From the human T2T-CHM13v2.0 reference genome, Homo sapiens: a DNA stretch of 64,000 bases. Below, in pieces: positions 33,717-61,358 of the stretch; positions within the stretch are counted from its first letter, which is position 1; every line of letters begins with the position of its first letter. Under the pieces are notes generated by a model that saw only the letters and a list, made by a program, of their open reading frames with translations, was not told the origin of the DNA and did not search any database. The stretch is taken from assembly GCF_009914755.1 (NCBI RefSeq), contig NC_060932.1; one strand, 5' to 3'. The position numbers were made by a program, and so were the translations under genes.

Positions 33717-33754
<38 letters not shown>

Positions 33755-33756
33755 GA
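33330..33756 (+). mobile_element. MLT2A 5' LTR of HERV-L (U5 end lost, replaced by (TA)n(GA)n)
   Basis: TGTGATAGTTAATACTGAGTGTCAAC...GGCAGACCCACCCTTAATCTGGG...GAGTTAATACTTAATAAACTC. Followed by Leu-type PBS remnant TGGTACAGGAGTGGTTC at 33762. Confidence 0.93.
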
Positions 33757-36960: not shown

Positions 36961-38690
36961 GGTTGTGCACTTTGCATGGGAGGAGAAATGGCCAGATGTG
37001 TGATCATATACTAATTCACGGGCTGTAGCGGGTGGTTTGGCTGGATGATCAGGGACTCGGAAGAAGCGTGATTAGAAAATTGGTGATAAAGAAATTTGGG
37101 AAAGATGTATGTGGATGGATCTCACTGAGTGGTCAAAAACTGTGAAGATGTTTGTATTCTATGTGAGTGCTCACCAATGGGTGACCTCAGCAGAGGAGGA
37201 TTTTAATAATCAAGTGGATGTGATGACCAGTTCTGTGGACACCATTCAGCCTCTTTCTCCAGGCACCCCTGTCATTGCCCAATGGGCCCATGAACAGAGT
37301 GGCCATGGTGGCAGGGATGGAGGTTACAAATGGCCTCAGCAACATGGACTTCCACTCATCAAGGCTGACCTGGCTATGGCCACTGCTGAGTGCCCAATTT
37401 GCCAGCAGCAGAGACCAACATTGAGCTCTCAATATGGCACCAGTCCTTGGGGTGATCAGACAGCTACCAAGCAGCAGGTTGTTATATTGGACATCTTTTC
37501 TTATAAAAAGGGCAGAGATTTGTCCTCACTGAAATAGACACTTACTCTGGATATGGGTTTGCCTATCCTGCATGCAATGCTTCTGCCAAGACTACCATCC
37601 ATGGAATCACAGAATGCCTTATCCACCATCATGGTATTCCATACAGCATTGCTTCTAACCAAGGCACTCACTTTACAGCTAAAGAAGTGCAGCAGTGGGC
37701 TCATGCTCATGGAATTCAGTGGTCTTACCATGTTCCGCATCACCCTGAAGCATCTGGATTGATAGAATGGTGGAATAGCCTTTTGAAGTCACAATTACTG
37801 TGCCAACTAGGTGAAAATACTTTGCAGGTCTGGGGCAAAATTCTGCAGAAGGCCATATATGCTCTGCATCAGCATCCAATATATGGTACTGTTTCTCCCA
37901 TCACTGAATTCACGGGTCCAGGAATCAAGGGATGGAAGTAGAAGTGGCACCACTCACCATTGCCCCTAGGGATCCACTAGCAAAATTTTTTTCTTTTTTT
38001 TTTTTATTATACTTTAAGTTCTAGGGTACATGTGCACAACATGCAGGTTTGATACATAGGTATACAATACTTTGAAGTTAAGCTGTTGCAATGTAATCTC
38101 AAATGATTCTAAGCCCTGGAAGTGTATCCTAGAGATGATGAAGTCTCGTTTGTCACATGTACTTACAAGGAAACAGGTTCCTTTAGGTGATGTGACTCAC
38201 CTCAAATTGCAGTGCTTTGTGTTAAGATCTAATTTAAAATGTTGTACTCGTTACAATCAAAAAAAGTCACTGAAAACCATGAGTAAATTCTGTAAAAAAT
38301 AACTGGACAATTTATCATATGTATACTGATTAGTACTATCATTTTCTTTCAAAAAGATTAATAAAATGTAAATACAAGCTTCATATACAAACATACTTTC
38401 CACATATGCTTAAGTCAATCCTCATAATACAAGTAGAATATAAATTTCAACTTATGATGAAATGAAATTACAGAAAATATATATTTCCTGTAAATTAGAT
38501 ATTGTATCATAAAGTAATGCACAAGAAATTGGCATAATTTAGTTGTACTGAGTACCTTTAAAGGCTGACTTCTACCTTGTAACTCAGACTCAAAGAATTC
38601 CATTTGAAAAGCTCCTCCTTAGAAGAGTGTGTATTTATTACATTTAATTTCCTCTAATATCCGTGTACACATATTTTTATATTTCTCCAG

Positions 38691-38813
38691 AAACACACAG
38701 ATGTCCAGAACAACATATCTACAAAGAATGTGGACCCTCCAACCCTGCAACTTGTTCTAATGTGGCTCCTTTTCAAGACAGTGAATGTGTGAGCGGCTGC
38801 ACCTGCCCAGAAG
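38691..38813 (+). pseudogene. MUC19: Orphan 123-nt exon encoding partial TIL (trypsin-inhibitor-like cysteine-rich) domain, gel-forming mucin MUC19-like
   Basis: Acceptor TTTTTATATTTCTCCAG| then (E)[40 protein letters not shown](G): open frame, 7 Cys in TIL spacing, phase 1-1. Followed by ATAGTA instead of GT. Gene identity is from recall of MUC19/submaxillary apomucin sequence, not a search. Confidence 0.75.
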
Positions 38814-38938
38814 ATAGTACACCAATGAGAGTATTTACACTAAAACAAAACAAAAGCTAAAGACAAAGTGGGACTCAAGTCATGTCAGAGTGGTGTCTTA
38901 TTTATAGCATGACATTCCCACAATTTAACTATTTCTAA

Positions 38939-39299
38939 TGTAGGGACATGGATGAAATTGGAAATCATCATTCTCAGTAAACTATCGCAAGGACAAAAAA
39001 CCAAACACCGCATGTTCTCACTCATAGGTGGGAATTGAACAATGAGAACCCATGGACACAGGAAGGGGAACATCACACTCTGGGGACTGTTGTGGGGTGG
39101 GGGGAGGGGGGAGGGATAGCATTAGGAGATATACCTAATGCTAAATGACGAGTTAATGGGTGCAGCACACCAGCATGGCACACGTATACATATGTAATTA
39201 ATCTGCACATTGTGCACATGTACCCTAAAACTTAAAGTATAATAATAATAAAATAAAATAAAATAAATAACTCCTTAAAAAATAAAAATAAAAAAAAAA
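38939..39299 (+). mobile_element. Young L1PA (PA2/PA3-like) 3' fragment with double A-rich tail
   Basis: TGTAGGGACATGGATGAAATTGGAAATCATCATTCTCAGTAAACTATCGCAAGG...GGGGTGGGGGGAGGGGGGAGGG...TAAAACTTAAAGTATAATAA, then (AAAAT)n CTCCTT A-rich run. Confidence 0.92.
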
Positions 39300-40155
39300 T
39301 TCTCTCTAACTCTCCTCTGCAGTTTCCACTAGCAAAATTTTTGATTCCTGTTCCCATGGCATTAGTTTCTGCTGGCCTAGAGGTGTTAGTTCCAGATGGC
39401 GGAATGCTGCCACCAGGAGACACAATGATTCCATTAAACTGGAAGTTAAGATTGCCACCTGGACACTTTCCGCTCCTCCTATGTTTAAGTCAACAGGCTA
39501 AGAAGGGAGTTACAGTCCTAGCTGGGGTGATTGACCCAGACTCTCAAGATTAAATCAGTCTACTACTCCGCAATGGAGGTTAGGATGAGTATGCACAGAA
39601 TATAGGAGATCCTTTAGGGGTCTCTTAGTATTACCATTCCCTGTGATTAAGGTCAATGGGAAACTACAACAGCCCAATTCAGGCAGGACTACAAATGTCC
39701 TAGACCCTTCAGGAATGAAGGTTTGGATACTCCACCAGGAAAAAAAAAAACATGACCTGCTGAGATACTAGCTGATGGCAAAGGGAGTACAGAATGGGTA
39801 GTAGAAGAAGGTAGTCATCATTACCAGCTGCAGAAACGAGGACTGTACACATTAAGAGTATTTCCTCCTTCTTTTGTGAAAACATGTTTGTGCACGTATA
39901 CACGTGTACTAAGAAAATATCTTCATTTTATTTCCTTTCTCCTTTATCATATGACATAAGATTTATTGACTTCTTATCAGCATTTAAGTATTGTTAACTT
40001 TATGTAACAAAAAGTTGGGGACTGGTACATTTCTGGTTGTATGAAGTACAGTTTTATTATGTTAGGTGTAATTATGATCTTATTATTCACCATATTTGAA
40101 GATTATTTATGATCCCAGAAGATGTGTATGGGTTTAAGTTGACAAGGGGTGGACT

Positions 40156-40891
40156 TGTGATAGTTAATTCTGAGTGTCAACTTGATTGGATTGAAAGATA
40201 CAAAATATTGATCCTGGATGCTTTTGTGAGGGTGTTGCCAAAGGAGATTAATATTTGAGTCAGTGATCTGAGAAAGGCAGATCCACCCTTAATCTGGGTG
40301 GGCACCATCTGATCAGCTGCCACCATGGCTAGAATATGAAAAGCAGGCAGAAAAATATGAAAAGATGAGACTGTTCTAGCCTCCCATTCTACCTCTTTCT
40401 CCTGTGCTGGATGCTTCCTGCCCTGGAACACTGGACTCCAAGTTGTTCAGTTTTGGGAATCAAACTGGCTCTCCTAACTCCTCAGTTTGCAGACAGCCTA
40501 TTGTGGAACCTTGTGATCATATGAGTTAATACTTAATAAATTCCCCTTTATATATATATACACATATATATATGTATATACACATATATATATATACACA
40601 CACACATATATATACACACACATATGTATATATATAAAGCACAGAACTCCCCTTATATATATAATATATAATTTATATATACATAAATATATATATAAAG
40701 GACAGAACTAATAGTAAATACATATTTTTTTCTCTAGACAGGGACAGAACTAATACATATAAAGCACAGAACTAATATATATAAAGCACATAACTAATAA
40801 CTATTATATATATTTATATATTATATATAAATAAATATAAATATAAATATATATATATATATGTTCTGTCCCTCTAGAGAACTCTAATACA
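40156..40891 (+). mobile_element. MLT2A 3' LTR with ~310-bp TA-rich expansion
   Basis: TGTGATAGTTAATTCTGAGTGTCAACTTGATTGGATTG start; ends GTTCTGTCCCTCTAGAGAACTCTAATACA; TA/CA-rich insert 40548-40862. Confidence 0.93.
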
Positions 40892-40995
40892 CAGACTTTA
40901 AAGACTAGAACATTTAAAAGTCACTGCATATATTGGAAAAGCAAGGACATCACATGCAATACGATCACAAGTTATACAATGAAACAGGAAAGTTT

Positions 40996-41033
<38 letters not shown>

Positions 41034-44000
41034 CATTCCCCAAGAAGAAATATATGGCAGACCTAGTATACAATGACTTTTAAATAGCTGTCTTAAAAGT
41101 GTCCAAAGAACTAAAGGAAAATGCAATGGAAGTCAAGACAATAATATATGAACAACATGTAAATATCAATAAAAGAAAAAGAAGAAACCAAAAAGAAATT
41201 ATAGTGTTAAAGAGCATAATAATTGCAATAATAAATTTACTAGAGGGATTCAAAGGCTGCTGTTAGCATACAGATAAAGAATTAGTGTACTTGATGATAG
41301 AACAGTTGAAATTATTGAGTCTAAGGAATATATGGGAAAAAAGATGTAGAAAAGTGAACAGAGTCTAAGAAACTTGTGGAATATCATCAAGCATAATTGA
41401 TGTGATGCACATCGAGGGAATTCCAGTAGGAAAAGAGAGAGATAAAGAGACATAGAGATTATTAAAGAAATAATGGCTCAAAACTTTCCAACTTTGATGA
41501 TAGACATAAATATCAAAGAAGCACACACACACAACAGAACAAAATTAGAAACAACGAAAGAAGGCCCACGCTGAAACATTATAATCAAAAGGGAAAACCT
41601 TGAAAACATAGAGAAATAAGTGACTCACCACATACAATTGACATTCAATAAGATTATAACAGATTTGTTTAATACAAACTTGGAAGGCCAGAAAGCAGTG
41701 GGCTAATATCTTTAAAGTGCTAACAGAAAAAAAAAATGTCAACCTAAAATGCTACTTTTGATAAAACCGTATTTTGAAAGTGATGGAAAAATTATGACAT
41801 TCCTGAACAAATTAAGGCTAATGTAGTTTATTACTACAGGATTTGTCCTGCAAAAAGTGCTAGAGTTCTACAGGTTGAAATAAAAGGATGTTAGACAGCA
41901 ATTCAAAGAAATATGAAGAATAAAACATAAGTAAAGGTAAATACATGGGTATGTATAAAAACTAGTATTACTTTAGCATAATTTGTAACTTCACCTTTTG
42001 TTTCCCACGTGATGTAAGAGATTAACATATTAAGTATAATTATTAGGCTAAAAGCTAGTATTAGTGTAACTTTGGTTTATAACTCTATATTTTGTTTTCT
42101 ACATAAGTTACTAATGCATTAAAAATAATTAATTTATGTTTCAAAACATGTTTAAGTTTTGTGACATGAATAATTGAAATTTGTGACATCAATAACTGAA
42201 AGGGGCAAGGATGGAACTGTAAAGGGCCAGATATTTTGTATGTTATAGGTAAGCTGGTATAAATCCAAATTAGAGTATTGCAACTTCTGGATTTTAATGT
42301 AGTCTTAATGTTAACCACAAAAAATAGTTATATGTAGCATATATACAAAAGCAAATGATAAGTGAATTGAAACCTTTCACTACAAAAAAATTAAGCGTAA
42401 AACAACACATTAATGCAGAAAAGGAGAAATAAAAAAGCTGTAAGACATATAGAAAACAAATACCAAACATGAAATAAGTAAATCTCTTATTATCAATCAT
42501 TACATTACATGCAAATGGATTAAACCTTCCAATTAAAAGACAGAAATTGGCAAGAAAAAAATTAAAAAAAAGGCCCAATTCTGTGCTATTTACAGGGACT
42601 TCCATTAGATAAAAAAACACAGGTTGAAAGTGAAAGAATAGAAAAAATATTCTGTTTTAATACTAACCAAAATGGAATGAGAGTAACTAGGCTAACATCA
42701 GAAGGAAAAAAAGCTTTTAATGAAAAAAGTATGCAATAGACAAAGAAGTCATTGCATATTAATTAATGGTTCAATAAGATAAGAATATATAATAATTATG
42801 AACATTCATATACACTCATGTATCTGATAATATATCATCAAAAAATGTGAAACAAAAATTGACAGAATTACTGTGAGAAAAATACTGTTGTATAATAGTA
42901 TTTGGAGATGTCAGCACCCCACTTTCAATAATAGGCCAGACAAAAGATAAGAAAATAATAGAGAATTTAAACAACATAGTAAACCAACTAGATCTAGCAG
43001 ACATATATAGAACACTCTACTCAAGAACAACAGAATATCCATTATTCTCAAGTGCATGTAAGTCATTTTCCAGGATAGACTATATGTTAGACCACAAATT
43101 AATTCTTAATATATTTAGATATATAGAGCTATATATATTATATAAAGTATAATTTCTAATCATAAAGGATAAAGTTAAAAATCAACAACAGAAGAAAAAC
43201 TGGAAAATTCACAAATTTAATATTAAATATTAAACAATACACCCTTAAACAACCAATGGATAAAAAAATTATGGGACATGTAGATATTACTACAATAGGG
43301 ATAAATGAGAATGGAAACACAACATACCAGAATTTATGGAATACAACAGAAGCAGTGCTGAGAGAGAAAACCATAATTATAAATGTTTACATTAACTTAC
43401 ATTTTAAAAGAGAGAACTCAAATCAAAAAAGAAACTAGAAGAAAAAATGAAACCCAAAGCTACCAGAAGAAAGTGAATAATAATGAATAAGCAGAGATAA
43501 ATGAAATAGAAAGTAGAAAACTACAGAGAAATTTTCTTTAAAGCTGCTTCTTCAAAAAGATAAATAGAATTTACAGCCATTTAAGAAGATTTACTAAGAA
43601 AAAATACTAAAATCAGAAATGACAGTGGGGACATTCCTACTGAATCTACAGAAATTAAATGGATTATATGAACAACTATCTACCAAAAAATCGGATAACC
43701 TAGATTAAATGGAAAAAATTACAGAAACACAAAACTTACCAATACTGAAATAAAAAATGAAAATTCTAAGTAGACTTATAGCTAGTAAGAAGATTGAATC
43801 AGTAATCAATAATTTTCTGACCAATAAAAGCCCTGGACCTATTACCTTCACTTGTGGGTTCTACCAAACATTTAAAGAATAACTAACTCTGCTTTCTCAA
43901 ACTTTTTCAGGAATTTCAAGACGTGGGAACGTAAACACTTTCTGACTCATTATATGAGGCCAGCACTGTCTTGATACCAAAGCCATAAAAAAATAGTACA

Positions 44001-44491
44001 CAGGGAAAAACAAACTAAGTAAACACCCCCCCAAAACTGCCGAACAATATACCTTATACTCATTGGTTAAAATATTCTTATCAAAATACTAGCAATCCAA
44101 ATTCATCAGTATATTAAAAAGATTATATATCATGATGAGTGGGATCTATTCTTGTAATGTAACGATGGTGCAAACTATGAAAATCAATTAACATAACACA
44201 TCACATTAACAGAATGAAGAACAAAATCCACATAATAATTCCACTGGTGCAGAGTAACCATTAGACAAAATTCAACGTCTCTTTCCAGGAAAAAAAAAAG
44301 GTTAATAAACTAGGAACAGTAGTAAGCTAACTCAACATAATAAAAATTATATATAAAAGCCAATAATCAAGATCACACTCAATGATGAAAGACTAAGAGC
44401 TTTTTCTCCAAGATCAGAAACGAGACAAGGCTACCTGATTTTACCACTTCTATTTAGCACAGTACTAGAAGCTCTAGCCAGAGCCAATAGT

Positions 44492-44566
44492 CAAAATAAA
44501 CAAATAAATAAATAAATAAAATAAAATAAAGAAAAAGAAAGAAAGAAAGAGAAAGAAAGAAAGAAA

Positions 44567-44614
<48 letters not shown>

Positions 44615-44625
44615 AACAAACAAAC
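44492..44625. repeat. (AAAT)n(AAAG)n(AAAC)n compound microsatellite inside L1
   Basis: Directly visible. Confidence 0.95.
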
Positions 44626-45319
44626 TGGAAAGGAATAAGAATTATCTCTATTCTCAGATAATATAATCTTATATGTAGAAAACCCTAAACATTCCACCAA
44701 AAAATCCCCTGTCAGAATAAATAAATTTAACAAAGTAGCAGGTTACACAGTCAAAATGCAAAATTAGTTGCATTTGTATACACTAATGATGAACAATTTG
44801 ACAAAGAAGTAAAGAAAGCAATTCCATTTACAATAGCATCAATAAGAATAAAATACTTAAGAATTAACGAAGATAGTGAAAGATCTGCACAATAAAAATT
44901 TTAAAACATTGCTAAAAGAAATTAAATACGACATAAACAAATGGAAAGATATTCCATGTCCATGGATTGGAAAACTTAATATTGTTAAAATTTCAATACT
45001 ACCCAAAGTGAACTACAGATTAATTGCAATCTCTGTCAAAATTCAAATGGTGTGGAATTTTTTGTGGAAATAGAAAAATCTATCCTAAAATTCATATTTA
45101 ATCTCAAGAGAATCCAAATAGCCCAAACAATTTTGAAAAAGAACAAAAGTTAAAGATCACACTTCTAGATTTTAAAATTTTTTTTCAAAGTTACAATAAT
45201 AAAAACAGCATTGTACTGGAATAAAGATAGATATATAGGTAAATAGAATAGATGGAGAGCAAGAAATAAACAATCACATATATGGTCAAATGACTTTTAT
45301 TTATTTTTTAATTTAACTC

Positions 45320-45453
45320 TTTTTTTTTTTTTTTTTTGAGACAGGTCTCACTCTGTTGCCTAGGCTGGAGTGCAGTGACGCAATCTTGGCTAACTGCAAC
45401 CTCCACCTCCTGGGCTCAGGGAATCCACTTATCTCAGCCTCCTCAGTTGCTGG
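45320..45453 (-). mobile_element. Truncated Alu (right arm, AluJ-like)
   Basis: Poly(T) GAGACAGGTCTCACTCTGTTGCCTAGGCTGGAGTGCAGTG...CTCAGCCTCCTCAGTTGCTGG, then L1 resumes. Confidence 0.9.
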
Positions 45454-46109
45454 CCACCACAATGGTGGGAATGTTGGTGAAAATGTAAACTGGTACAGCC
45501 CCTGTAGAAAACAGTATGGCAGCTCTTCATAAAGCAAAAATATAATTACCATATGATCCAGTCCTTCCACTTCTGGATATATACCCACAATAATTTAAAG
45601 CAGAATCTTGAAGAGTTATTAGTACAATCATGTTCATAGTAGCACTATTCACAATAACTAAAGGATGGAAACAACCCAAGTGTGGACAGATGGATGGATA
45701 AGCAAAATGTTGTATACACATACAGTGGAATGTTATTCCTCCTCAAAGGTAAGGATTCTTTGACATATGTTACTACATGAATGAACTTTGAGGATATTAT
45801 GCTAAGTGAAATAAGCCAGTCATGAAAGTTCAGATACCGTATGTTTTCACTTTATGAGGGCACCCAGAGTAGTCAAAAGTTATAGAAACAAATAGTAGAG
45901 TGGTCATCGCCAGTGGCTGTTGGGAGAGGAATGGGATTTATTGTCTAATAGGTATGCAGTTTCAGTTTTATGAGATGAAGAGTACTGGAGAAGGATGGTG
46001 GCAATGATGCACAACAATGTGATTGTACTAAATTCCAATGAACTATACTATTAAAAATGATTAGGACAGTAAATTTTATGTATATTTTATCACATAAAAA
46101 TTTGAAAAT

Positions 46110-47175
46110 ATTTTCCATAAAAATGCAAATTGTCAAGCATAGCCAAGAAAATCTGAAAAAAAGAAGAAAGCTAGAGACACCACCAGACGAATTTAAAGCT
46201 GTAATAATTAAAGAATGAGATACCTGTGCAAACAAAGAAATAGATCAATGGAAGGAAATACAGAGTTCAGAAACAGACTTTATATATACATCGATATGTT
46301 TTATGAGAAAAGTGATGCTGCAATACATTAGAAAGAAGGTAATTATTTCAATAATAACCTGTGCTGATTGTTTTCTATATGGGGACAAAACATATCAAAC
46401 CCCTATCTCACACCATACACAAAAATAAATTCCAAATAGATTGTGTATTAAGCGTAAACCTTACATAATAAAGTTTTTAGTAAGCAACTGGAAACATATC
46501 TTCCTAAGTCCTTGAGAAGACAGATATCTTAAAATCGACAAGATGTTGTAAATATACAATTTTTTAAAATGGGTAAATCGATCTATTTTATAATTTACAA
46601 CTTACACTCATCAAATGTCAATGAAGAATTTATTATAATTTACAACTTTTACTTACCAAATGTCAATGAAGAGAGAATTGGGGATAGTTTCTTCTCCAAT
46701 CACATTTATCTGAGAAAGGAACAAACAAAGGACTCCCGCAAATTTGTAAGAGAAACATAGATAACCCAATAGAAAAATAAAGACTTTAACAGACACTTCC
46801 TGAAATGATATTCAAATCCCCATATTAACATATAAAATAGATGCCCAACTTCATTAACCATTTTACAAATGAAAGTTAAAGTTATATTGAAATACTAATG
46901 TAAACCAACTAGAATCACTAAACTGCAAAACGTGGAACAATTCAAGTATTGTTGAAAACGTACAGCAGCTGGTACGCATTTTTAAAAACTCTGAGCATCT
47001 GCTAAAATTGAACATATACAGAGTCGATGATTCAAAATTTCCCCTATAAGGTATAGTACCAACAGAATATATTCATATTTTCAGTAAAAAACGTGTATCA
47101 AAGTATGCATAGAAGCCAATTCACAGAGTTGTATACCTTTCTGTATTTATATTATTATTCAATAATAAATAAAAT
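46110..47175 (+). mobile_element. Very old L1 (L1MD/ME-type) ORF2 3' and 3' UTR fragment
   Basis: ATAGCCAAGAAAATCTGAAAAA, ATAGATCAATGGAA, CCCTATCTCACACCATACACAAAAATAAATTCCAAATAGATT. Confidence 0.7.
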
Positions 47176-47867
47176 TCTCTGGTGAAACTCCAGAATGTTC
47201 TAACTTGTGAATACATCTTGCATGAGCCTTACTTTTCTGACCGTCTCTTAATCCTTTAGACACATCTCCTGTCTCTTCTTTTCCCCATCTTATTATTCTG
47301 TATTCGTGGAATTCTATACTTTAGCAATAGTGAATTTCTTATATTTCCCCAAATGAATTATGCTGTAGTATTTGCTAAGTTATATTTACAGGCTCAACTT
47401 TTCCTATTACTCTTCACACTTTCATTCCACCTCATCTTTCTAACTGCTGTCTTCCAAATTCATTATTTGCTTTAATATTTTAACCTGCCTCTTCTGATAA
47501 ATTTTCCTTCACATCTTTTCACACTGTCTCACTCAAATATAAGCATGTACTGTTCCTATGCCTATCTCTGTCACCTTTTGTACATAAATACCACAACACT
47601 CATCATGGCTTAGTGTCTCATCATTTATGTGTACAAGTATTTTCTATCAGAACATAAATCAATTGAGGGAATGTTGGGGGAAGGGTTCATGGACACATGT
47701 ATTTATTTTTGGACCACCAGTCCATTGTCCTATATCTGTTAAAAATAGTTATTAAATAGATATTTGCTCAATGAGCAAGTGAATTATTAAAAGATGCATT
47801 TCCTTAACTAAGGAATAGAATTGGCTGTTTCAATATAGTTTTTACTCTGTCTAGGAAATGTATGAAT

Positions 47868-48171
47868 CTTTTTTTTTTTTTCGAGATGGAGTCTCACTCT
47901 GTTGCCCAGGCTGGAGTGGGATGGCATGATCTTGGCCCCCTGAAACCTTCGCCTTCTGGGTTCAAGCGATTCTCCTGCCTCAGCCTCCCAAGTAGCTGGG
48001 GTTATAAGCCCGTGCCACCACACCCAGCTAATTTTTGTATTTTTTTTTTTTTAGTAGAGATGGGGTTTCACCATGTTGGCCAGGCTGATCTCGAATTACT
48101 GGCCTCAGGTGATCCACCCTCCTCTGCCTCCCAAAGTGCTGGGATTACAGGTGTGAGCCGCCATGCCCGGC
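47868..48171 (-). mobile_element. Full-length AluS
   Basis: Poly(T) GAGATGGAGTCTCACTC...GTGAGCCGCCATGCCCGGC; degenerate TSD GGAAATGTATGAATCTT / GGAAGTGCATGAATCTT. Confidence 0.95.
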
Positions 48172-48244
48172 GGGAAGTGCATGAATCTTATCCTTCGATT
48201 CAAAACAATGATCCAGAATTAAATTAGAACAACAATTTCAATAT

Positions 48245-48632
48245 GCTGCTCAGAGACTCCTGGGGGTCTGTAAGGCTAAAACAATTCTCATAATAATACT
48301 AAGACATCATTGCCTTTTTTTATTCTCATTATTTCACAAGTAGAGTTTTCCAGATTGTATACCTCCTGAGATTTGTAAAAATGTGAAATAATGCCAATTT
48401 TATCCTTGATATTTTTGTCCTTGAAAATATGGTCATTTTTATGAAACTACATTATTTAGACTTATATGTAATAGACTTCTTATTTTTAATTGAATTAACT
48501 TTTAAAAATTGATCTATTTTATAATTTACTAAAGCTGTTTTAATTTCAATGGAGAAAATATTAATAAAACCCACAAAAACTAAAGTAGGATCTTCAACAA
48601 AAGTGTAATAAAGTTCTTAGATTGCTAATCTA
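48245..48632. mobile_element. hAT-Charlie DNA transposon fragment (MER119/Charlie-like)
   Basis: GGGGGTCTGTAAGGCTAAAACAATTCTCATAATAATACTAAGACAT and GAGATTTGTAAAAATGTGAAATAATGCCA blocks. Confidence 0.55.
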
Positions 48633-49783: not shown

Positions 49784-50319
49784 AAAATTATGCAGGTTTC
49801 AAAGACAGAGCAAGAATAAATGCAGAAGAAATTATACAAATTTGTCTGTTGAACTTTGAATCCTGTGTTGTATTTTTCAAATATTATTTTTAGATTTAAT
49901 AATAAAAATTTCTAAAGCATATCAAAGTAGGAATAATGATACAATGAGTTTTACATGTCCTTTCCCCAATTTAACATTTACGAAAATTCTGCCACATTGT
50001 CTTCCATAATTTTCTTTGTCTTTTCTTCTTTGTTGGAGTTTGTACAATCAGAACTTAAAAAAAGTTAATGCCCATAAAAATTACTTGAGGATTCTCTTAG
50101 AATGAAAATTATGATTCAATATATCTGTGGTGGATATTGAGATTCTGCATTTCTAATAAGTCTACAAGTAGGGCTGATACTACTGGTCTAAAAACCATAT
50201 TTTAACATATTTATAAAACATACATCAGATAATATGCTTTGTCACCTCTACCTAGTTCACTATGCATCTCTAAAAATGTGTACATTTTCTTACACAACCA
50301 CGTGCTATTCACACACTAG

Positions 50320-50590
50320 TAAATTAACACAAGAACAGAAAACCAAATACTGCATGTTCTCACTTATACGTGGGAGCTAAGTGATGGCAACACATGGACA
50401 CACAGAGGGAAAAAGCACACACTGAGGCCTTTCAGAGGGTGGAGGGTGGGAGGAGAGAGACGATCAGGAAAAATAACTAATGGGCACCTGAGTGATGAAA
50501 TAATCTGTACAACAAACCCCAATGACATAAACTTACCTATGTAAGAAACCTGCACTTGTACCCCAAACTTAAAACAAAAGCTTAAAAAAA
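50320..50590 (+). mobile_element. Older L1PA (PA13-16-like) 3' fragment
   Basis: ACAGAAAACCAAATACTGCATGTTCTCACTTATA...GAGGGTGGAGGGTGGGAGGAG...GATGAAATAATCTGTACAACAAACCCC. Confidence 0.85.
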
Positions 50591-50879
50591 CCCTAAAAAT
50601 AATTCTTTAGTATCATCTAATTCCAAGCCCATAATCATATTCACCCAATTATGTTAATAATTTAGTTTTCTCAATTTGTTCAAACTAAACTTAGGACAAC
50701 ACAACACACAATTTGTTTTGCTTCTTGAATTCTTCTTGATATAGGGCAGTCTCTCCATTCATTTTACCTAATTCTGAAATCCACTGACTGGTGGCAGTCA
50801 TCCTACGGAATAGAACTCATAGTGTTGGTATTTTCATGACTTCCTTTATCAACTTTCTGTTCTCGAAAGTTCAGTTTTT

Positions 50880-51266
<387 letters not shown>

Positions 51267-53178
51267 TTACCCATATTCAAAGTAATAAGTTGATTCTCTG
51301 TTTTCTTCTAAAGGTGACCAACCAGGATTTTGTTGCTATTGTTGTTTCTTAATAGCAATAATAAACTCCATGAATTTAAACAAGTTTGATATGTTTCAAT
51401 TTAATGTATTTATTTATTTTTTAGAATTATTATTCCATACTGATGCATTTATTTTTAATGATACTTAAATTGTGCTTTATCCATTTTCAATTTATAGAAA
51501 TTAGCTTTTTGAATCTTTTTGACAAAACAATAGTAATTTTAGATGGATTCCTTACTTTGTTGTAATAATGAGTAAAGAAAGCTGGATCTTTGGGGAAAAA
51601 CATTGTATAAAATATATATTTTTAATTTCTATATTTTTGCATGCCATGGGGTGATGTGGAAAGCATGTTTAAGTAATTGTATTCAATAAAAGAAACAAAA
51701 GGAAAAATGGTGCAGTATCTTTAATTTATCAGTTTACATGAGATTCTTTCTGGCAGTTGCCTTTGGATAACAGCTTGCAGTTCTTCTACCCAATAACATT
51801 CTAATGTTTCACTTACGAGCTATATACCAAATTCTCACTTCCATATAGGTCAAGTTTCATGGGACATATGCTTCAGTGGCTCTATCTGTAATTTTTTTTT
51901 TACTAAACTCAACTTGGTAACAAAGCCATTGACTGTATGATAAACTGTTTTCACTCAATAGTATACCAAAGAAGCTGATTTTTCTAATAATTAAACCGGG
52001 CTACTTAGGTACAATGGCTTCCAATGAGCTTAAAGCAACTTCATAAAATATTCTAACACACCTTACCATGTGATATATAAGGTTCCTATTTTATTAAAAC
52101 AAATACGTTTATCTATTCCTCATTTTCTCTTCAGGCAGGGAAAGTTTTTCTCCTGAAGGAAATTTTGACTAGCTTTAATAGTTGTACATATTTAGTAAAA
52201 TATATACAATTTAGTGCCTTAGAAATCATTTGTCAAATGGAAGTTCAAACCTAAGGAGACTTTTAAAATGGAAAACATTGTTAATACAATACACTGTGTC
52301 TACATTATAGGTATCAATTATATCATAATGGGAATCATTAAAATAAAGTGGAAATATTGCATCTGCTATAAAATAATCAATTCTAGTTTGTTTTTCTTAT
52401 ATTTCCACTGGAAAGACTTCCTTTTAAGAAATATTTCTCAAAAAAGCAAAATAGCTTAAAGATGTACTGAGAGGTTATTGTTCAAGTTGCTCCACTAAAG
52501 TGCTGAAATAAGAAATAAGAAAAGCAAGATAACATAATAATAAGTATATATCTAAGTCGATCATTTAGCTGAACACCCACGACATATGCCTCTGCACTGT
52601 TTTAAGTGCATTTGATAAAATAAACGATTAGAACTGAGTTCTTCCCTTATATACTTTACTATTAATACATTAGTCTGCTGTTTTCATCCTTTCAACCTAT
52701 TTTCAGTGCAAATAAACTCTGAGATTTTATCTCCAGTTGAGTGATGCTTGGTTTCTTCTAGGGGAAGAAACAGCTGAAACCTCTTTACGTTTACAGTTGT
52801 TATCCAAGAAATGATTTTTCAATAGAGAAAATATGGTTGATCATTGTAGGAGAATTGCCATTGACACGGCTAGTAATTAGTCTCAAATTATCTCCAGCTT
52901 AGCTAACAGTCACACCTCATGAAACCAAAAATGGGAGTCTTAGACAACAATCCAGGCAGAAGATTATTAAGATTCCCACTGTGACATGCTACGTGAAACC
53001 TTGTAGATTCACATTAGTCATCTTTTTTTTTCTGGATTTTACACTGTGGAAGGTAACAACTCATTTTGCAAACTCACAGCTGTTACACACTTATGACTTG
53101 AGTGGTTGCTGCATATTTCCATTAAAGAATTGCACTGCGAGTTTTCTAATATGCTTCATTAATAAAGGTCAAACAACC

Positions 53179-53363
53179 TTCTGGGGTTTAAGGACCCTTT
53201 AGAGTATTCCTATTGGTTATACCCTATGTTAATTGAAGACTTGGCCCACGACCAATCAGAGGCTGAAGTGAGGTTGCACACTATTCAAATAAAGACTTGT
53301 CCCATGACCAATTGGAGGCTGAAGTGAAGGCTCCTTGTCTCCAGATCTTATTCTCCTGCATCA
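53179..53363 (-). mobile_element. MER51/MER61-family 3' LTR (U3 only; R/U5 deleted)
   Basis: Aligns with 58305-58522 (GAAGACTTGGCCC..ACCAATCAGAGGCTGAAGTG..TGTCTCCAGA..TATTCTCCT). Purine tract on the minus strand at 53364-53375. Confidence 0.85.
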
Positions 53364-53789
53364 TTTCCTCCTGAGAGATGTGATCCCCATAAATCTTTAT
53401 GGGAGGCAGAGTGACTAACTGTTTTTCTTCTGTAACTGCTTCATTCTAATTGGGGAGCAGTTCCTACCTACTGGGGACAATGGTACTCTTTCTACTGGGG
53501 ACAAGGTGACTTCTTGAGGGCCAGGGCTGGCATCATCACCTGAAACTGGCTGAAAGACCTACTGCATGATCATTTGAAGCCTAATGGTTTTTAGGTGAGA
53601 AGAAATAAATCTGGTTAAAAGATTTAACATGGTCCAAAAATTAATGCAAGTATAATTATTAAAAATGGGCTGGCTAGGGGAAGAAGACATGAAGCTCAAC
53701 TAAGTGCCCTTTACCAGGAGCCCCATAACTCAGACAGCTGTGTTTATATTTTAGAGGCCTGGTGAGTGATTTTCATGTGACAGTTTTTA

Positions 53790-54120
53790 CTAATCCTGAT
53801 GGTTGACATAAAAACAACATTCTTCTTCTAGGAAAAGATATAAGCCACTTTTTTTTTTTTAGCAGTTAGGAGATCCAGTTCCCTTCTATTTTGTAAAGCA
53901 ACTATTGCCAAAGAGTCGATCTGATTTCGTAAGGTGACAATATTTTGGGCAATGTCTTCCAAGCTGTCTGAGATATCCTTGGACAAGTGTTGGTAACAGG
54001 GTAGGGAAACTGCAAGCCCACTAACTCCTGATCCTACTCATGCAGTTAATCCTAGCCCTACCAAAATGGGTATGAGTTAGATGGCTCTTTTGTGCCTGGT
54101 GTTTGCAGTAGAGACTGGCT
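53790..54120 (-). pseudogene. Degenerate gammaretroviral env SU/TM junction and TM ectodomain
   Basis: Furin site RHKR (54086-54097), fusion peptide AI*LIPILVGLGLTA*VGSG, heptad, ISD LQNRRELDLLTA, then after an A-run frameshift LFLEEECCFYVN. Confidence 0.85.
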
Positions 54121-56344
54121 ATTGTGGAAGCTATATTGATTTGGTGGGCTAAACAAACACTTGTACAGGTTCCAGTTCAATTGGCTGATAAACATAAGCA
54201 GGAACTGGTTGCATACAGGAAAAAGACTCATTGTTTTTCAAAACAAAAAATTTTTCTCTATGGTGAACATATGAGTTAGCTTGTTGTTTTCGCTTTCCCA
54301 AGTAGTTAAGGTCCCTGCTAAGGTGGCCCCTGCTAAGGTGGCCCCAGCTAAAGGCTGGAAAGGGCCTTAGGAAGTATCTGGAGTTGCCCCAGCAGTTCTG
54401 TTTTCCCAGTGGAGGTAGTTACACTTAGTGTCCACCAGCAACTACCAAGAGGTATTTTCGTACTGGGGCACCAAAAGGCAACTAGATGTCTCAGGGTTAG
54501 TACAGTCTTCCTAAGGGAATATGTGAACACTGCTAGCGGGTCTACCTTGAAAGTACTTAGACTGTGTATCCTCTGAAGTGCCCTTAACTAGAGATGGTTT
54601 CCATGAAAACTGTATAAGTTTTCTAAATGATGCAGCCTGGCAATTGCATGGCTTACATGATCATGTGACAGATTAATCTCTAGGGGGTAGCTTTTAAGCC
54701 AATTAATTAGAGTTACTTTATATAAACATCACACACACAGCACTTGTATACAAAGGAAAATCCAGCAGTTATTAACTTTTTCTTTCCCATTTTATGAATC
54801 TTATCACAACTTCCACAGGCCATCTATGACATGCTTGGATTTTCTGACCTATCCTATATTTCCCTCTTTCCTAAATAATTAGTTATTCTACTTTAGGACA
54901 AGAATTTGCCATACAAGATCCTTTCTCATATAAAATTTCTTTTCTTCATAAACTTCCTTACCATAAATACATATTCATATCCATAACTTTCTTTATATCT
55001 TTTTCCCCTACTAAAGTAATTTCTGATGCTCTCAAAAGTCAAAAAGGTCAGGTAACATGATGCAAAACAGAGCAGAGCCTTAGATTTTGAAAGGGACCTG
55101 TCAGTTTAAAGTTCTTGGGGTTCCATGAGGAAAACAGAGTTTTCTCCTAAAATAATTTCTGTGGTGTCTTCTGTTTTTTCTAAGGAGCCTCCTGCTGTTA
55201 GAAATTACCTTAGTTCTTCTCATGTGGGCATCGAGAGTGGCAAGAAGACAGACTGAGGAAATAACCCAGTCAACTGAGAAGAAAAGCAAACAAAAACTTA
55301 GTACTATCCCCATTGTAAAGATGGATAAATGGTGGCACTATATAGTTTAAATATTCATGTTCACATAGAGTTAGACTCCACAGCTCACTCCCTTAACCAT
55401 CCTGTAATTCTCCCTACTCTCCGCCCAGTCGCTGATGCACATGGTTGGTAGTTCATGGTGCACTTAACACTTTTCCTGCCCCCTTAGAACATGGTTTTTA
55501 TTTTCTGCTCTACAGCTGTATAATTTAACAATTTTTATCTTAATGTGTTGTATTTCAACCCTATATATCTCAAATTTTATTAATATTACTGAATCTTAAA
55601 AGGGGCTGTAACGTTTTTAATCCTTACAAATATTAGCCTACAAACAAATACATATGGTTAAACAGTATTCAAATTTTTATATGCTTTAAAACATTGAGGC
55701 AAGGTATTGAGAACCACACCAAAGAAATCGCAATCAATCTACTCTGGACAAAAATTTAGAGAATCTCTCTTCAAAATAAGCTAGCTAGTGGTATTTATAT
55801 GTATTCTCACATATAAACAGTATTTTACATGCTTATAACCTTAAAATAATTGAAAAATATCAAAATTATAGGCCTTATACATTTCTTTGGGCTTGAAAAT
55901 GATACGATATAGATTATTTGTTTATTTAAAGCATCGATAAAATATATAAACTTCCGGATAGAGTAATCACTTAAAAAAAAGACTTCATACTGGAGGTAGT
56001 AATACTAGGAATAAAAGAGGGCTCAACACCGCCTTCTGAAAAGGAAGGGTCCAGATTGGTATATTTTCTAAAGGCTTCCCCAGCCTGCAATAAAATATGG
56101 CTGGATTTTCCTCCTTGCCTGTGTAACCTCCTTTACTTTATTATAATCTACCAACTTATTCTTTTTTTCATTCCTCCAATAAGAGCCTCAAGAAATTTGG
56201 TCTGGTTGTCCATTCCTATGGAAGTGTTATTGTCCCAATTAGGATCAGTAGTGGTGACTGTGTCTGAGCCTGGGTAATTGCCCTGAGGGTTTCGGGTGAA
56301 TAAATTGTCTGCTTACCAGTGGGCAGCCTCAAAGATTCATTTCT

Positions 56345-56580
56345 GAGGCTGAAGCAGGCGAATCACTTAGGACCAGGAGTTCAAGACCAGCCTGGCCAAC
56401 ATGGCAAAACCCCATCTCTACTAAAAATACAAAAATTAGCCAGATGTTGTGGTGTGTGCCTGGAGTACCAGCTACTCAAGATGCTGAGGCAAAAGAATCA
56501 CTTGAACCCAGGAGCTGGAGGTTGCAATGAGCAGAGATTGCACAACTGCACTCCAGCCTGGGCAATAGAGTAAGACTCTG
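56345..56580 (+). mobile_element. Internal Alu fragment lacking 5' end and poly(A), inserted in ERV gag
   Basis: GAGGCTGAAGCAGGCGAATCAC...CTACTAAAAATACAAAAATTAGCC...GGGCAATAGAGTAAGACTCTG followed by CTTTTTTT. Confidence 0.9.
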
Positions 56581-58089
56581 CTTTTTTTAAACAAATGTTC
56601 CCTTTTCAAGGAGGTGCAACAGGTTGCTAGAATGAATTGGACGTCTTTCCATGAGAGAACAAAGACTAAGGTCAAAGTTTGGAACCATCTGCAGATTTTC
56701 TGCAGTTCTGTGAATAGCTTCCTAGCTTTTCTTTGCATTGTTGTATGTCAGTTAGGGAGAATGAGCATGCACTTAGACTTAACCCTCGGCTCCTGCGACT
56801 TCCCTAAGGTGTAATAGGGCTGGAGTGGGAGTTGAATAGTTTTTTTCCCTCTGAGTGGGATGAGAACTTAGTATTATTACGCTAATCCCTTATAATGGGA
56901 AGGGGACTCCCATTATTCCTGGCTGTCCAGCTGATATTGGAGCCATATAGTATTACAGTAAAAAATCAGATGTTTTCTCCTTAGATTATCAGGGTTAAAT
57001 TGATTCCAATTGTTGAGGATGCAGCCAAGTGAAGAATTAGGTGGAATGTATGGAAAGTTGTCCATAGTGGTCTGGAAGAAAAAAGTGTGTCTAGCTTATT
57101 TGGCGACCCAAATTCTACCTGGGGTGTCCCCCTGGAAAAATTCTGGGCCCCGAGGTCCCCAAGGGTGTCCTTATTTAGGCCTTCATCTTAGTGTGTCAGA
57201 CATCCCTGACCTTAGATGGGAGCCAGTACCAATTTGGGAAGGTTCTCTCCACCATTGATGGCCCAGTATGAGCTTTCCTTTTGTCCATAGATGAAGGCCT
57301 TGACTTCTAATGTCCCTATAATTTTATAAGACTATGCTTTCCCATGCTTCCCATTCCACTAGAGTGTTACCTATAAACTTTAATGACAGGACCTGGAGGC
57401 TGGTTGAGTTTCTTTTCTCATGGAGATTATGACTAATTTCTCAGGTGGATTTTGGTCATGAACATTGAAAGAGTAGGGTTGACTATTCCACTCAGGCCCT
57501 GGACAAGAGAAGGAATGTTTAAAAATCCACCACCATGACAGTGGGTCTTGTGCAAGGGCAGGCCAATCTATACAAATAATATGATGATACCAAAAGAGAC
57601 AAGATCCCTTCAGTGGAGGTCCAAGATGTAGAACGTATTCTAAAGCTTGCGGGCCCCAAAGATCCTCAGCCAAGTGAATACATTGAGTAGGAGAAGGGTG
57701 GTCAAAACACCTAAGAGACACTATATTTTGCCATTACAGGCTAATCCTATAGGAGAATTTAGCATGAGAAACGAGGGTTTAAGTCACCCTAAACATGTGT
57801 GAGTTCACACTAGATGAGCTACCTCTGTCAACTGCATCACATGTAGGGATCATGGACTATAACCAGGAAAGAAAAGAGTCTTTCCCCCCTCAGGGAAGGG
57901 CAGCTATCCCCATTAACTCACTGGGCGTCAGGTAACAGCAGAGAATGGACCCAGCCAGTTGCCCTCAATTACCAAGGAGCTACTGGGAAACAGATGCTGA
58001 AAGACTGAAAAAAAAGTAAAGGACAGAAACAAAAAGGCAGGGGGGAGAGGAAAAAATAAAGAAAAAAAAATCCCAGAATTTTGGCTTGC

Positions 58090-58107
58090 CTTCTGGCTGG
58101 CTCACCA
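58090..58107 (-). promoter_or_regulatory. Primer-binding site, tRNA-Arg
   Basis: Minus strand TGGTGAGCCAGCCAGAAG, 16/18 to TGGCGAGCCAGCCAGGAG (complement of the recalled tRNA-Arg(ACG) 3' end), just inside the LTR. Confidence 0.7.
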
Positions 58108-58112
58108 AAATA

Positions 58113-58522
58113 TATTGCTGGTGAGGGAGGGTCTTGACAAGAGTTGTCCAGGTTCTTGGTGAGTTAAACACAGAATTGAACAAAAGACACAAACAAAACA
58201 ATAAAAGAAGGAATCAACAAAAACACACATTTATTGCAGCAAAACTACACTCCACAGAGCAGGAGCAGGCTCAAGCAAGTGGCTCAAGAGTCCCACTTGC
58301 AAATCCTCTGGGATTTAAGTACCCTTTAGAGGTTTCCTATTGGTTACACCCTATGTAAATGAAGACTTGGCCCGCAACCAATTGGGGGCTGAAGTGAAGG
58401 CTTGGCCCATGACCAATCAGAGGCTGAAGTGGTTACACCCTATGCAAATAAAGACTTGTCCTGTGACCAATAGGAGGCTGAAGTCAAGGCTCCCTGTCTC
58501 CAGAACCTATTCTCCTCCTTCA
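58113..58522 (-). mobile_element. MER51/MER61-family 5' LTR
   Basis: Minus strand TGAAGGAGGAGAATAGGTTCTGGAGACAGGG start, repeated CCAAT units, AATAAA, ...CCAAGAACCTGGACAAC...CCAGCAATA end. Confidence 0.85.
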
Positions 58523-61300
58523 CAACCATAAACATATAAATGAATTCTTCTAAGTACTTGATACTTGTTTGCACTTAAATCACAGAAACAAGTTCTTTCC
58601 TCAAGCCTAGAATTGAATATAGGTTTCCCTAAATAAGTTATATAGCTCCAAATTATCTATCTAACGATCACTTTTTTAAGGCAATGAGATTTAGAAGTGT
58701 AGATCAGCCATGTAAATTTTTTTTAAATCCCCTAGTAACAATCCCAGTTCATATTGTTAAATGTCAAGTGACGTGTTGCTGAAGAGGGAAAAGCAATTCT
58801 AACATGCTATTTCTCATATTTATAGCCCAGCATCCTAGCTTAAAATCCTTTCTGGCGGTTATATGGGAAGAGTTTGAAGGAGATCTGGAGACTACCAGAT
58901 TACAGCACACAGGGAATCTTTAACATAGGTAACCTCTTGAATCCCTCAAAAGAGACAGGTCATGTGTTCCTGAGGCCAACAGAATGAAAAATTTGATTAG
59001 ATAGGGTTTTTTTTGACGAGATCCTCCTTTTCCCACTATTGTTTACAAAGTATAGCCCAGTCCATAATTAAATAACATTCATTAGAAACTACATAGAACC
59101 TACATATACTGAAAATCAAAAGGAGAAAGTTAAGCAAAAAGCAGATGAAAAGCATATATAAAAAAGGAATAGCCCTCAGAGAACAAACATTTATCAACAA
59201 TATATGCTTTCTAATAAAATAATAATAGTGTACAAATGTAGAACTAATATAGGCTCTTATAAGAGCAGAAACGTTGTTAGAAGACATCAGTATAAAATTA
59301 GAAAAAATAAATAATAATATGATTCCAATAATATAAAACATTAGAGAGTGAAAATAGTATGGATATGACTTAAATGATATGGAATATAAAATGTATTTAG
59401 CCTATGCCCAATTGAATGAATATAGATCTTAAAAAAAATAGAGGTAGAGCTAGGGAGGAGGGAGAAGGAAGAGAAGCAATAAAGTGCATGGGGTAAATGT
59501 TTAACAATGAATGGGTGTAAGTAAGATCTGTATGAGGGAATAAATATGCTCAATATACTGTTTTTATAATTACAAATATTCTGTAAAATTTTATTTATTT
59601 CTAAATAAATAACCTTCCAGGCAGAGTTTCTGATTTTTTAATTGCAATTAAAAAATAGTTTAAAAAATTATCTTTCACCCTGCTTTAGGAATGATCAAAC
59701 ATGACCAATTGTGGTTTATTTATATCTTTACACACTTACATTCCTCTTAAATAACGGCTGCGAAGCAATCCTAGACACAGAGATTCTGATGTAAATTTAG
59801 GGAGTTGGGTCCAAGCACAAAACTTTTAAAGAACTTTTTCCAATTGATTTGAAGCCAGGTTTGGAAAACGATACCCTATATCCTTTTAAATGTATCTATT
59901 AGTCCATTTGATCTGAAAAATATACCACTATGAATGCAGTATTTTTAATCAACTTTCTATGTCTAATAATTTTTACTTTATATATTTTTGGATATGTACA
60001 AAGACAGTCCTTGGATAAAGATTAAGTTACATTTCATTTCTGGTGAACTATAACTTTTATTAATTTTCCTCCTAAATAGGGCAAATCATATATCATTGTT
60101 ATATTAAGTTGTATTCTTTAATTATTAATACAGTTGAGTGACTTTGTTTTTTTTTTCTTTGTGAATTGGCTATTTATTTTTGCCTATTTTCCTATTGGTT
60201 TGTTCTTTCTTAAGTAGGAGCAGATATACTTTATATATTATGAACACTAAACTTAGTCTTTATGGAAGTTGCAGACATGGTCCCCAAACTTAAACATTTT
60301 CATATTGTACTTTCCACCAAAGATTTTAATTAGTACAAAAACAATATTGCAATCATTAGTTAGAAATAGGGTACCAAATTAACTTGGCCAATTTTAAATG
60401 GAGACACATAATTCACTTACAACTTAATTTTATAATCTTTAAAATTGACGTATATTCAATTTCCTTTTGTACTATTTTTTTTTCTTGTTGGCTTATGGCT
60501 ATGTATTTTAAAGTTTTCAATCTTATCCATGAGGCCAGAATACTTGAGACTAGAGAGGGGAAGAAGTAGAGAGAACCAGGGAAGGCAGTATAGGAGCAGG
60601 AATGACACTGAAGCCAGGGCAGTTGAGAAGAGATAAGACCCAAGGAAACTACACGCACTTGAATGCCCTGATGGGGAAGTAAAGATGGCATACATTTGAT
60701 TTGTCATGTACTGGTTGTGATTAAATCTGGGGAGTACCTGAGATGCAACTTTGGTATCCTAGTGGTGTTGCTCTGAGATTTCCCCTTTAATCTAGAATAT
60801 GTTTCTGAATTCTGGGCAGCCAGAAGTTCAGAAGTACCTTCACAGGGTATTTCAGTTTCCTTTTCACAATTGGCGTATTGTGTCATTGATACATGAAATA
60901 AAAATTGAATTCAAGTAGGATTGAACAGTGAAAAGAAATAAAACATATTGGGTGGCCATAGGGAGAGAAAAGACACCAGATAGACAATGATTTTGGTCAT
61001 CAACATCATTCCAAATGTGATATATGTATATATTTGTATTATTTGTATTTGTAGTTTACATCTCAATTGATTTAGGTTTAGCAATTTTTGCTATTGATTA
61101 CTCCCTTCTTTGGGAAATCTGCTCTATGTTAAAATATTACTCCCTAATGTTTTGTCTTAATACCTCCTCCATATTAAGTGCTTTTTCTGATAACTCCAAC
61201 CATTTTATAATTAAAAATAAGATATAGAAATTTGCTCACTCGACTGAGTCAGAAATGTGGAAATTTTCTTAGACTTTTCTTTCTATTTTATCTCATATAT

Positions 61301-61358
61301 TGTCATGGTTACCCATTACTATGCAACATACTACCCCAAAATTAAGTAGTTTAAAACC
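61301..61358 (-). mobile_element. MLT1G-like LTR 3' terminus (~60 bp)
   Basis: Minus strand GGTTTTAAACTACTTAATTTTGGGGTAGTATGTTGCATAGTAATGGGTAACCATGACA resembles the MLT1G end (GTTTTAAGCCACTAAGTTTTGGGGTAGTTTGTTACGCAGCAATAGATAACC..ACA). Confidence 0.7.

What the first reader, a model, noticed from the sequence alone, without database searches (positions are those of the whole stretch)
36961..61358. Cryptic ~24.4-kb inversion with deletion, read from a split RNase H domain and a split MLT1G LTR
Seen: the plus-strand HERV-L jumps at 36960/36961 from the tether (…GAAACACAAAGAA) straight to GGTTGTGCACTTTGCATGG (VVHFAW…). The minus-strand HERV-L stops at 61359 with …GCAGTACACCTGGT (…WAEVPAVHL). These ends are contiguous in HERV-L RNase H (AELRAVHL-VVHFAWKEKWPDVRLYTDS), overlapping by GGT. 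Where the minus element stops, it joins an MLT1G-like 3' terminus (61301-61358, minus), while the MLT1G 5' part (33043-33329, plus) lacks its 3' end. Flipping 36961-61358 restores the RNase H and puts both MLT1G halves in the same order and orientation. Inference: one event inverted the block and deleted the 3' half of the left provirus plus part of MLT1G, using GG/TGGT microhomology rather than NAHR at homologous positions. MLT1G outer flanks ACACA / ATATA give only weak TSD support.
Basis: partly seen in the sequence, partly recalled or inferred. Interest (0 to 1): 0.8.

Follow-up and report, generated by a model that had tools for sequence, protein, structure and literature searches.

The report
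Fossil inversion between two retroviral relics
About 20 kb of gene-free DNA on human chromosome 8 lies flipped between two broken, oppositely oriented retrovirus relics, as three split repeats show; it is likely an old, fixed event made by a mix of homology-guided and microhomology repair, an ordinary kind of rearrangement with no known effect.

Summary
The inversion is real. Positions 61359 and 36961 are adjacent in 26 of 29 other proviral copies; about 549 nt are missing at 36960/61; the MLT1-type LTR is split with about 177 nt lost. One part of the reading needs correction: the LTR at 40156 is the sequence sister of the left LTR (33330), not of the far LTR whose flank it carries. So 36961-40891 is probably not simply the right provirus's 3' half. 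Host DNA certainly inverted: 40892-61358 (20.5 kb). Not listed in two human inversion tables or a gibbon map, so likely ancient and fixed. No gene within 100 kb. A new member of a known class (transposon-mediated inversion with deletion); low interest.

The parts
33043..33329 (+). 5' part of an old MLT1-type LTR (MLT1G by recall), interrupted by provirus A
   Evidence: aligns from the start of 14 of 14 fetched copies
33330..33755 (+). 5' LTR of left provirus A; 5' flank CTAGC; last ~45 nt replaced by (TA)n(GA)n
33756..36960 (+). 5' internal half of provirus A (gag, protease, RT to the tether; labels partly recalled), decayed: longest stop-free stretch 105 aa
   Evidence: 82.5% identical to the minus-strand element over 33329-36957
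36961..36962 (+). left visible junction, GG microhomology, about 549 nt of pol missing
36961..40155 (+). 3' internal proviral half (RNase H end, integrase), origin A, B or hybrid; carries a younger 1.35-kb insert
   Evidence: Pfam rve E 2e-12, Integrase_H2C2 weak; origin test leans to A, inconclusive
40156..40891 (+). 3' LTR: sequence sister of the left LTR over its first ~340 nt, but followed by the flank of the right provirus; TA tract expanded; a hidden homology junction or conversion boundary is inferred at 40496-40891
40892..40896 (+). CAGAC, target-site duplication of provirus B
   Evidence: partner beyond the window at L003:3533-3537; 5-nt overlap in L1 copies L038, L049
40892..61358 (.). 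inverted host block, 20,467 nt; begins with the 3' continuation of the split old L1 (plus strand, traced to ~42285)
61301..61362 (-). 3' tail of the MLT1-type LTR; about 177 nt of its middle lost
61359..61362 (-). right junction, TGGT microhomology between provirus B and the MLT1 tail
61359..64000 (-). 5' internal half of right provirus B, ending in the RNase H region; longest stop-free stretch 107 aa. It runs on beyond the window: internal part to L003:3094, 5' LTR at L003:3095-3532 (65095-65532 in continued numbering), then the second target-site copy and the 5' part of the split old L1 at L003:3533-4035 (65533-66035), all minus strand
   Evidence: Pfam RVT_1 E 3e-7 at 62329-62538

Best explanation
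The 20.5-kb block 40892-61358 is inverted between two decayed, oppositely oriented proviruses, and it likely flipped in one old repair event that used their homology at one join and a short microhomology at the other. Shown: two proviruses, A (plus, inside an MLT1 LTR) and B (minus, inside an old L1); L1 halves and MLT1 halves on opposite strands; about 3 kb missing. Inferred: one break in the RNase H region of B and a second just beyond A in the MLT1 LTR. On the left, the resected 3' half of A and the freed 3' half of B, which are complementary from the RNase H break to the LTR end, annealed or exchanged strands; the product kept mostly A letters but B's flank, which hides a junction in the last part of the LTR at 40156-40891. 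The 549 nt of A that had no partner upstream of B's break were lost and closed at GG. On the right, B's 5' half was joined to the MLT1 tail at TGGT. This explains in one event why both visible junctions fall on the same RNase H position and why the 3' LTR is A's sister.
For: TSD and L1 continuity; RNase H adjacency 26 of 29, about 0.001-0.002 if two breaks were independent; MLT1 split; microhomologies. 3' LTR is A's sister: 5 vs 1 rare letters, 1 vs 2 discordant common sites, where 8 true pairs give 0-3 and 0-1 and 51 of 56 non-pairs give 2 or more discordances; clade 98/80; four of the shared letters also mark a solo LTR elsewhere, L093, so they are a lineage and not noise; 30-mer in 3 places genome-wide, two of them these LTRs. 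The internal 3' half scores +6.1 towards copies with A-like LTRs, above all 12 held-out copies with B-like LTRs (max 3.6). A and B share 13 rare letters in their common internal span (max 10 in 153 control pairs), 6 of them in the last 267 nt before the left junction (control max 3), as strand exchange would leave.
Against: An AU test does not reject the 3' LTR plus far LTR as a clade (p 0.35). The classifier of internal sequence is poor (13 of 22 held-out copies right; without CpG sites the score falls to +2.7 and 1 of 12 B-like copies exceeds it); copy-by-copy correlations and branch lengths do not separate A from B origin. The clustering near the left junction is not significant by Fisher's test (p 0.07; 0.24 without the last two columns), and A and B have longer branches than the control copies. 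The 30-mer was chosen after seeing the alignment. The model needs three junctions and an inferred loss of an unpaired stretch. No pre-inversion allele was seen.
Confidence: 0.45

Rival explanations
1. One reading: 36961-61358 flipped as one 24.4-kb piece through two microhomology joins (GG, TGGT), deleting A's 3' half; separately the 3' LTR was overwritten by an LTR of A, most simply afterwards, when the two LTRs had become a direct repeat 5-7 kb apart.
For: Only two junctions; explains the RNase H adjacency, the TSD and both split repeats. Conversion between LTRs of one provirus is documented (review PMC8781664, passages seen).
Against: Needs a second event covering at least 340 nt; the two LTRs share no letter absent from all 40 other copies, so it must have come very early; the internal 3' half leans to A and A and B share extra rare letters next to the left junction, neither of which this model predicts.
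Confidence: 0.35
2. One reading: the 3' LTR is B's own and its likeness to A's LTR is chance parallel mutation.
For: AU test p 0.35; the far LTR and the 3' LTR have the longest branches of the tree; 1 of 56 non-pairs also shares 5 rare letters.
Against: Four lineage letters shared by A's LTR, the 3' LTR and L093, each in 1-3 of about 65 other LTRs and none in the far LTR; identity to the far LTR 83.0%, below all 8 true pairs (86.7-92.2%), though the left pair at 86.0% is also just below them.
Confidence: 0.08
3. Plain NAHR inversion with the crossover near the end of the two 3' LTRs, followed by two unrelated deletions (549 nt in A; RNase H to MLT1 tail in B).
For: Explains the A-type 3' LTR and the lean of the internal half; most transposon-mediated inversions have homologous junctions (73% of 15; PMC9675761, passages).
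Against: Two independent deletions must end within 3 nt of each other, about 0.001-0.002 by chance; the left deletion is not a recurrent one (0 of 39).
Confidence: 0.07
4. No inversion or an assembly artefact: independent fragments that happen to fit.
For: MLT1 outer flanks match only 3 of 5; MLT1 elements are common; no outgroup was seen.
Against: Three independent split features agree, one of them predicted blind; no inversion is called here against this assembly in two human tables.
Confidence: 0.03

Closest known systems
Transposable element-mediated rearrangements, inversions with complex breakpoints (PMC9675761; passages seen)
   Same: Breakpoints in two oppositely oriented elements of one class; deletions at the junctions; mix of homologous and non-homologous repair.
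   Different: Their inversions are polymorphic, Alu or L1 mediated, median 2.5 kb with 38-251 nt lost; ERV events were set aside. This one is ERV-mediated, 20-24 kb, loses about 3 kb, appears fixed and is read from repeat fossils.
'Inv and Del' class of the 1000 Genomes SV map (PMC4617611; passages seen)
   Same: Inversion with adjacent deletion; 14% of their sequenced inversion sites.
   Different: Defined there by two alleles in living people; here the other allele is inferred.
HERV-mediated NAHR (PMC4195946; search listing and start of abstract only)
   Same: Two proviruses as recombination substrates.
   Different: Recurrent events with junctions at matching positions (recalled); here the visible junctions are at non-matching positions and the elements are now 82.5% alike.
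Gene conversion or ectopic recombination of ERV LTRs (review PMC8781664 citing Johnson and Coffin, Kijima and Innan; passages seen)
   Same: LTR kinship that departs from what one insertion predicts.
   Different: Here the mismatch is tied to a visible inversion and both parent proviruses can be identified.

Membership tests
TE-mediated rearrangement (TEMR) | Breakpoints in two different elements of the same class | tested here: met
   Left junction in provirus A, right junction in provirus B, 82.5% alike and opposite; the right join partner is an MLT1 tail
TE-mediated rearrangement (TEMR) | Two alleles compared (reference and rearranged) | not testable with these tools
   No other primate or human genome can be searched; ancestral state inferred from split repeats
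Inversion with deletion (Inv and Del) | Block in reverse orientation relative to both flanks | tested here: met
   L1 halves and MLT1 halves on opposite strands
Inversion with deletion (Inv and Del) | Sequence lost at a breakpoint | tested here: met
   About 549 nt of pol, one proviral 3' half (about 2.3 kb, inferred) and about 177 nt of MLT1 absent
Simple NAHR inversion | Two reciprocal chimeric repeats joined at matching positions, nothing lost | tested here: not met
   549-nt offset on the left, right element cut off
Microhomology-mediated joins | A few nt shared by both joined sequences | tested here: met
   GG left (25 of 29 copies), TGGT right (3 of 7 MLT1 copies; the locus's own MLT1 middle is gone, so inferred); 2 nt can be chance
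One provirus = far LTR + LTR at 40156 | Same target-site duplication | tested here: met
   CAGAC on both
One provirus = far LTR + LTR at 40156 | LTRs are sequence sisters | tested here: not met
   1 rare letter, 2 discordant sites, 83.0%; not rejected by AU test, p 0.35
One provirus = left LTR + LTR at 40156 | Same target-site duplication | tested here: not met
   CTAGC versus CAGAC
One provirus = left LTR + LTR at 40156 | LTRs are sequence sisters | tested here: met
HERV-L with MLT2A LTRs | RT and integrase between TG...CA LTRs, 5-nt TSD, high copy number | tested here: met
   Pfam RVT_1, rve; 1270 and over 4000 first-look candidates
HERV-L with MLT2A LTRs | Best match to the Dfam/Repbase family models | not testable with these tools
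Polymorphic human inversion | Both orientations in people | tested here: not met
   None of 10 chr8 rows of Table S1 of PMC10150506; no id starting chr8-785 and only an SNV for chr8-786 in the held, cut supplement of PMC12350169

The most novel reading that the evidence does not exclude
A fossil of a hybrid repair event: single-strand annealing or strand exchange over about 2.3 kb between two inverted, slightly diverged proviruses at one end and microhomology joining at the other, in a primate ancestor, leaving a provirus whose two LTRs are true sisters but whose flanks belong to two insertion sites. Such events older than the ape radiation are invisible to ape-versus-human catalogues and could be mined genome-wide from split repeats and TSD-versus-LTR discordance.
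Probability: 0.4. Interest if true: 0.42.

Novelty: new member of a known kind. Interest (0 to 1): 0.24.

Why it matters
It shows that an old inversion can be proven and its mechanism argued from one genome, by target-site duplications and split repeats, and it is a caution for dating and annotating proviruses: the left element looks like an ordinary provirus with an internal deletion and sister LTRs, yet its 3' flank belongs to another insertion. There is no gene within 100 kb and no annotated functional element in the window (hub annotation), so no biological effect is expected.

Tried and rejected
LTR 3'-terminus length (short in the 40156 LTR, long in the far LTR) first looked like a lineage mark but differs within both true pairs where both ends were read (L013, L017): dropped. 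The chrX copy with the shared 30-mer carries only part of the A haplotype and L093 has no internal sequence beside it: no A-lineage internal sequence was found. A first multiple alignment of internal copies was spoiled by unrelated flanks and was replaced by pairwise projections; these show a near star-like family with little power. An inherited 549-nt deletion was rejected. A DNA search with the MLT1 5' part found only itself; a pattern search found 21 others, of which 14 were fetched. Two of 10 fetched 5' LTR windows missed the LTR and were left out. The 34-aa RNase H end and the tether piece gave no Pfam match. Inversion tables of the ape T2T paper (PMC12058530, PMC11312596) and the macaque map (PMC7605249) were too large to read and could list this locus. 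Nine literature searches listed no paper whose title or abstract start names this locus; they cover open-licence PMC and bioRxiv text only.
Full report
Setting. The window is G000:C8:78554001-78618000; I fetched 18 kb further and continue window numbering beyond 64000. The hub annotation lists no gene within 100 kb and no functional element. Pfam confirmed reverse transcriptase at 62329-62538 (minus) and integrase at 37507-37938. All proviral pieces are decayed (longest stop-free stretches 105, 153 and 107 aa).

Observation. A self-comparison shows one long inverted match, 33329-36957 against 65533-61914 at 82.5%, and three LTRs: 33330 (plus), 40156 (plus) and 65532 (minus). I took the best 29 of 40 other genomic matches to the end of the right element and aligned each window piece to them separately. 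In 26 of 29 the places of 61359 and 36961 overlap by exactly 3 nt; a median of 549 nt lies between the places of 36960 and 36961. None of 39 other scored matches, of 1284 candidates, spans the left junction. GG at 36961-62 fits both sides. The tail 61301-61362 aligns to the 3' end of copies found with the 5' end of the MLT1-type LTR: better than all 200 shuffles in 5 of 14 copies (14 of 21 hits fetched), with 177 nt between the halves in the 2 best-aligned copies; TGGT is in register in 3 of 7.

The blind prediction. The far LTR is followed on the plus strand by GTCTG at 65533-65537, the reverse complement of CAGAC at 40892-40896. The next 500 nt are the 5' part of an old L1 on the minus strand: 28 of 29 other copies (of 40 matches) hold that part followed by the sequence that starts at 40892, and in L038 and L049 the two alignments overlap by exactly five bases. 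The right provirus therefore inserted into this L1, and the L1's halves now lie 24.6 kb apart on opposite strands. With the split MLT1 this shows an inversion whose host part is 40892-61358.

If 36961-40891 were the right provirus's 3' half, its LTR would be the sister of the far LTR. The data say otherwise. Against 40 other LTRs (20 best hits of the far LTR, 20 further top hits of the left LTR), the 40156 LTR shares 5 rare non-CpG letters with the left LTR and 1 with the far LTR; 780 pairs of other LTRs share at most 3. The only starred clade in the tree is left LTR + 40156 LTR + L093 (98/80; bootstrap not fully settled). A 30-mer covering two of these letters, chosen after the fact, occurs 3 times in the genome: in these two LTRs and once on chrX. 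Eight true 5'/3' pairs (of 10 fetched) share 0-3 rare letters with 0-1 discordant common sites at 86.7-92.2% identity; left/40156 gives 5, 1 and 86.0%; far/40156 gives 1, 2 and 83.0%; 1 of 56 non-pairs reaches 5. Four of the letters are also in L093 and in only 1-3 of about 65 other LTRs. Against this, an AU test does not reject far + 40156 as a clade (p 0.35), and the LTR terminus length proved useless. The A-like letters run through the first 340 nt of the LTR; the rest is uninformative.

Origin of the internal 3' half. Using 22 copies typed by their 3' LTR, 36961-40155 scores +6.1 towards A-like copies, above all 12 held-out B-like copies (max 3.6), but the classifier is right for only 13 of 22 and the score drops to +2.7 without CpG sites. 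Branch lengths and copy-wise correlations are uninformative. A and B share 13 rare letters over their common span (153 control pairs: max 10), 6 in the last 267 nt before the left junction (max 3), but Fisher's p is 0.07 and the two elements are more diverged than the controls. This leans to strand exchange between A and B; it does not prove it.

Mechanism. Any model must explain an A-type LTR with B's flank and two junctions on the same RNase H position (chance about 0.001-0.002). Best (0.45, inferred): a break in B's RNase H region and one just beyond A; A's and B's 3' halves annealed or exchanged strands on the left, keeping A letters and B's flank; the unpaired 549 nt were lost at GG; the remaining ends joined at TGGT. 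Chance likeness (0.08), NAHR plus two independent deletions (0.07) and no inversion (0.03) are unlikely. All inversion models lose the same 3 kb or so.

Age. It postdates both insertions; most elements of the MLT2 subfamilies studied in PMC11319637 inserted after the tarsier split and before the simian ancestor (parts 1-2 of 3 read). No inversion is listed here among the 10 chr8 rows of Table S1 of PMC10150506 or in the held, cut supplement of PMC12350169. The 15 chr8 rows of the gibbon map's Table S2 (PMC9712629) have none between 65.5 and 84.3 Mb (26 of 58 places not seen). Absence from lists is weak evidence, and the ape and macaque tables could not be read, but an old, fixed event is the likely reading.

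Comparison and verdict. Inversions with adjacent deletions made up 14% of sequenced inversion sites in PMC4617611 (passages); transposon-mediated inversions with deletions at the junctions are described in PMC9675761 (passages); LTR conversion is reviewed in PMC8781664 (passages); PMC12058530 curates 1,140 ape inversions over 10 kb (passages); PMC10028934 passages gave nothing on this locus. Nine searches listed no paper on it. It is a well supported new member of a known class, neat as genome palaeography, without a sign of function. Interest 0.24.

Noticed in passing
window 37973-39342: A 1.35-kb insert inside the integrase region with an 18-nt target-site duplication (37973-37990 / 39325-39342): poly(T) and an L1 3' end on the minus strand, then 875 nt that are 97% identical to G000:C12:40378930-40379805 and include a cysteine-rich exon piece (Pfam TIL, E 2.5e-5; MUC19 region by recall), then an L1 3' end with poly(A) on the plus strand. 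Looks like an L1-mediated templated insertion, much younger than the proviruses.
   Followed up: partly
window 40546-40862: The TA tract of the 3' LTR has grown to about 300 nt and contains several reverse-complement copies of the neighbouring LTR end, as from repeated fold-back copying; it lies in the zone where a hidden junction is inferred.
   Followed up: no
window 33716-33755: The left LTR lacks its last ~45 nt; a (TA)n(GA)n tract runs straight into the internal sequence.
   Followed up: no
window 40958-40964: The old L1 lacks roughly 200-500 nt here compared with most other copies.
   Followed up: no
L003/L004 (continued coordinates 70112-71177 and 79509-80566; 80546-80644): Beyond the window: a 1.07-kb inverted pair at 74.5% identity and a 100-nt near-perfect palindrome.
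   Followed up: no
L130/L155 and L134/L156: In two other proviruses the 5' and 3' LTR termini differ by a 4-nt indel, in opposite directions, so this indel recurs or LTRs are often exchanged in this family.
   Followed up: no
window 53180-53363 and 58307-58522: Two related LTR-like segments with short tandem CCAAT-box repeats, 74% alike, inside the inverted block; another such array at 25416-25674.
   Followed up: no
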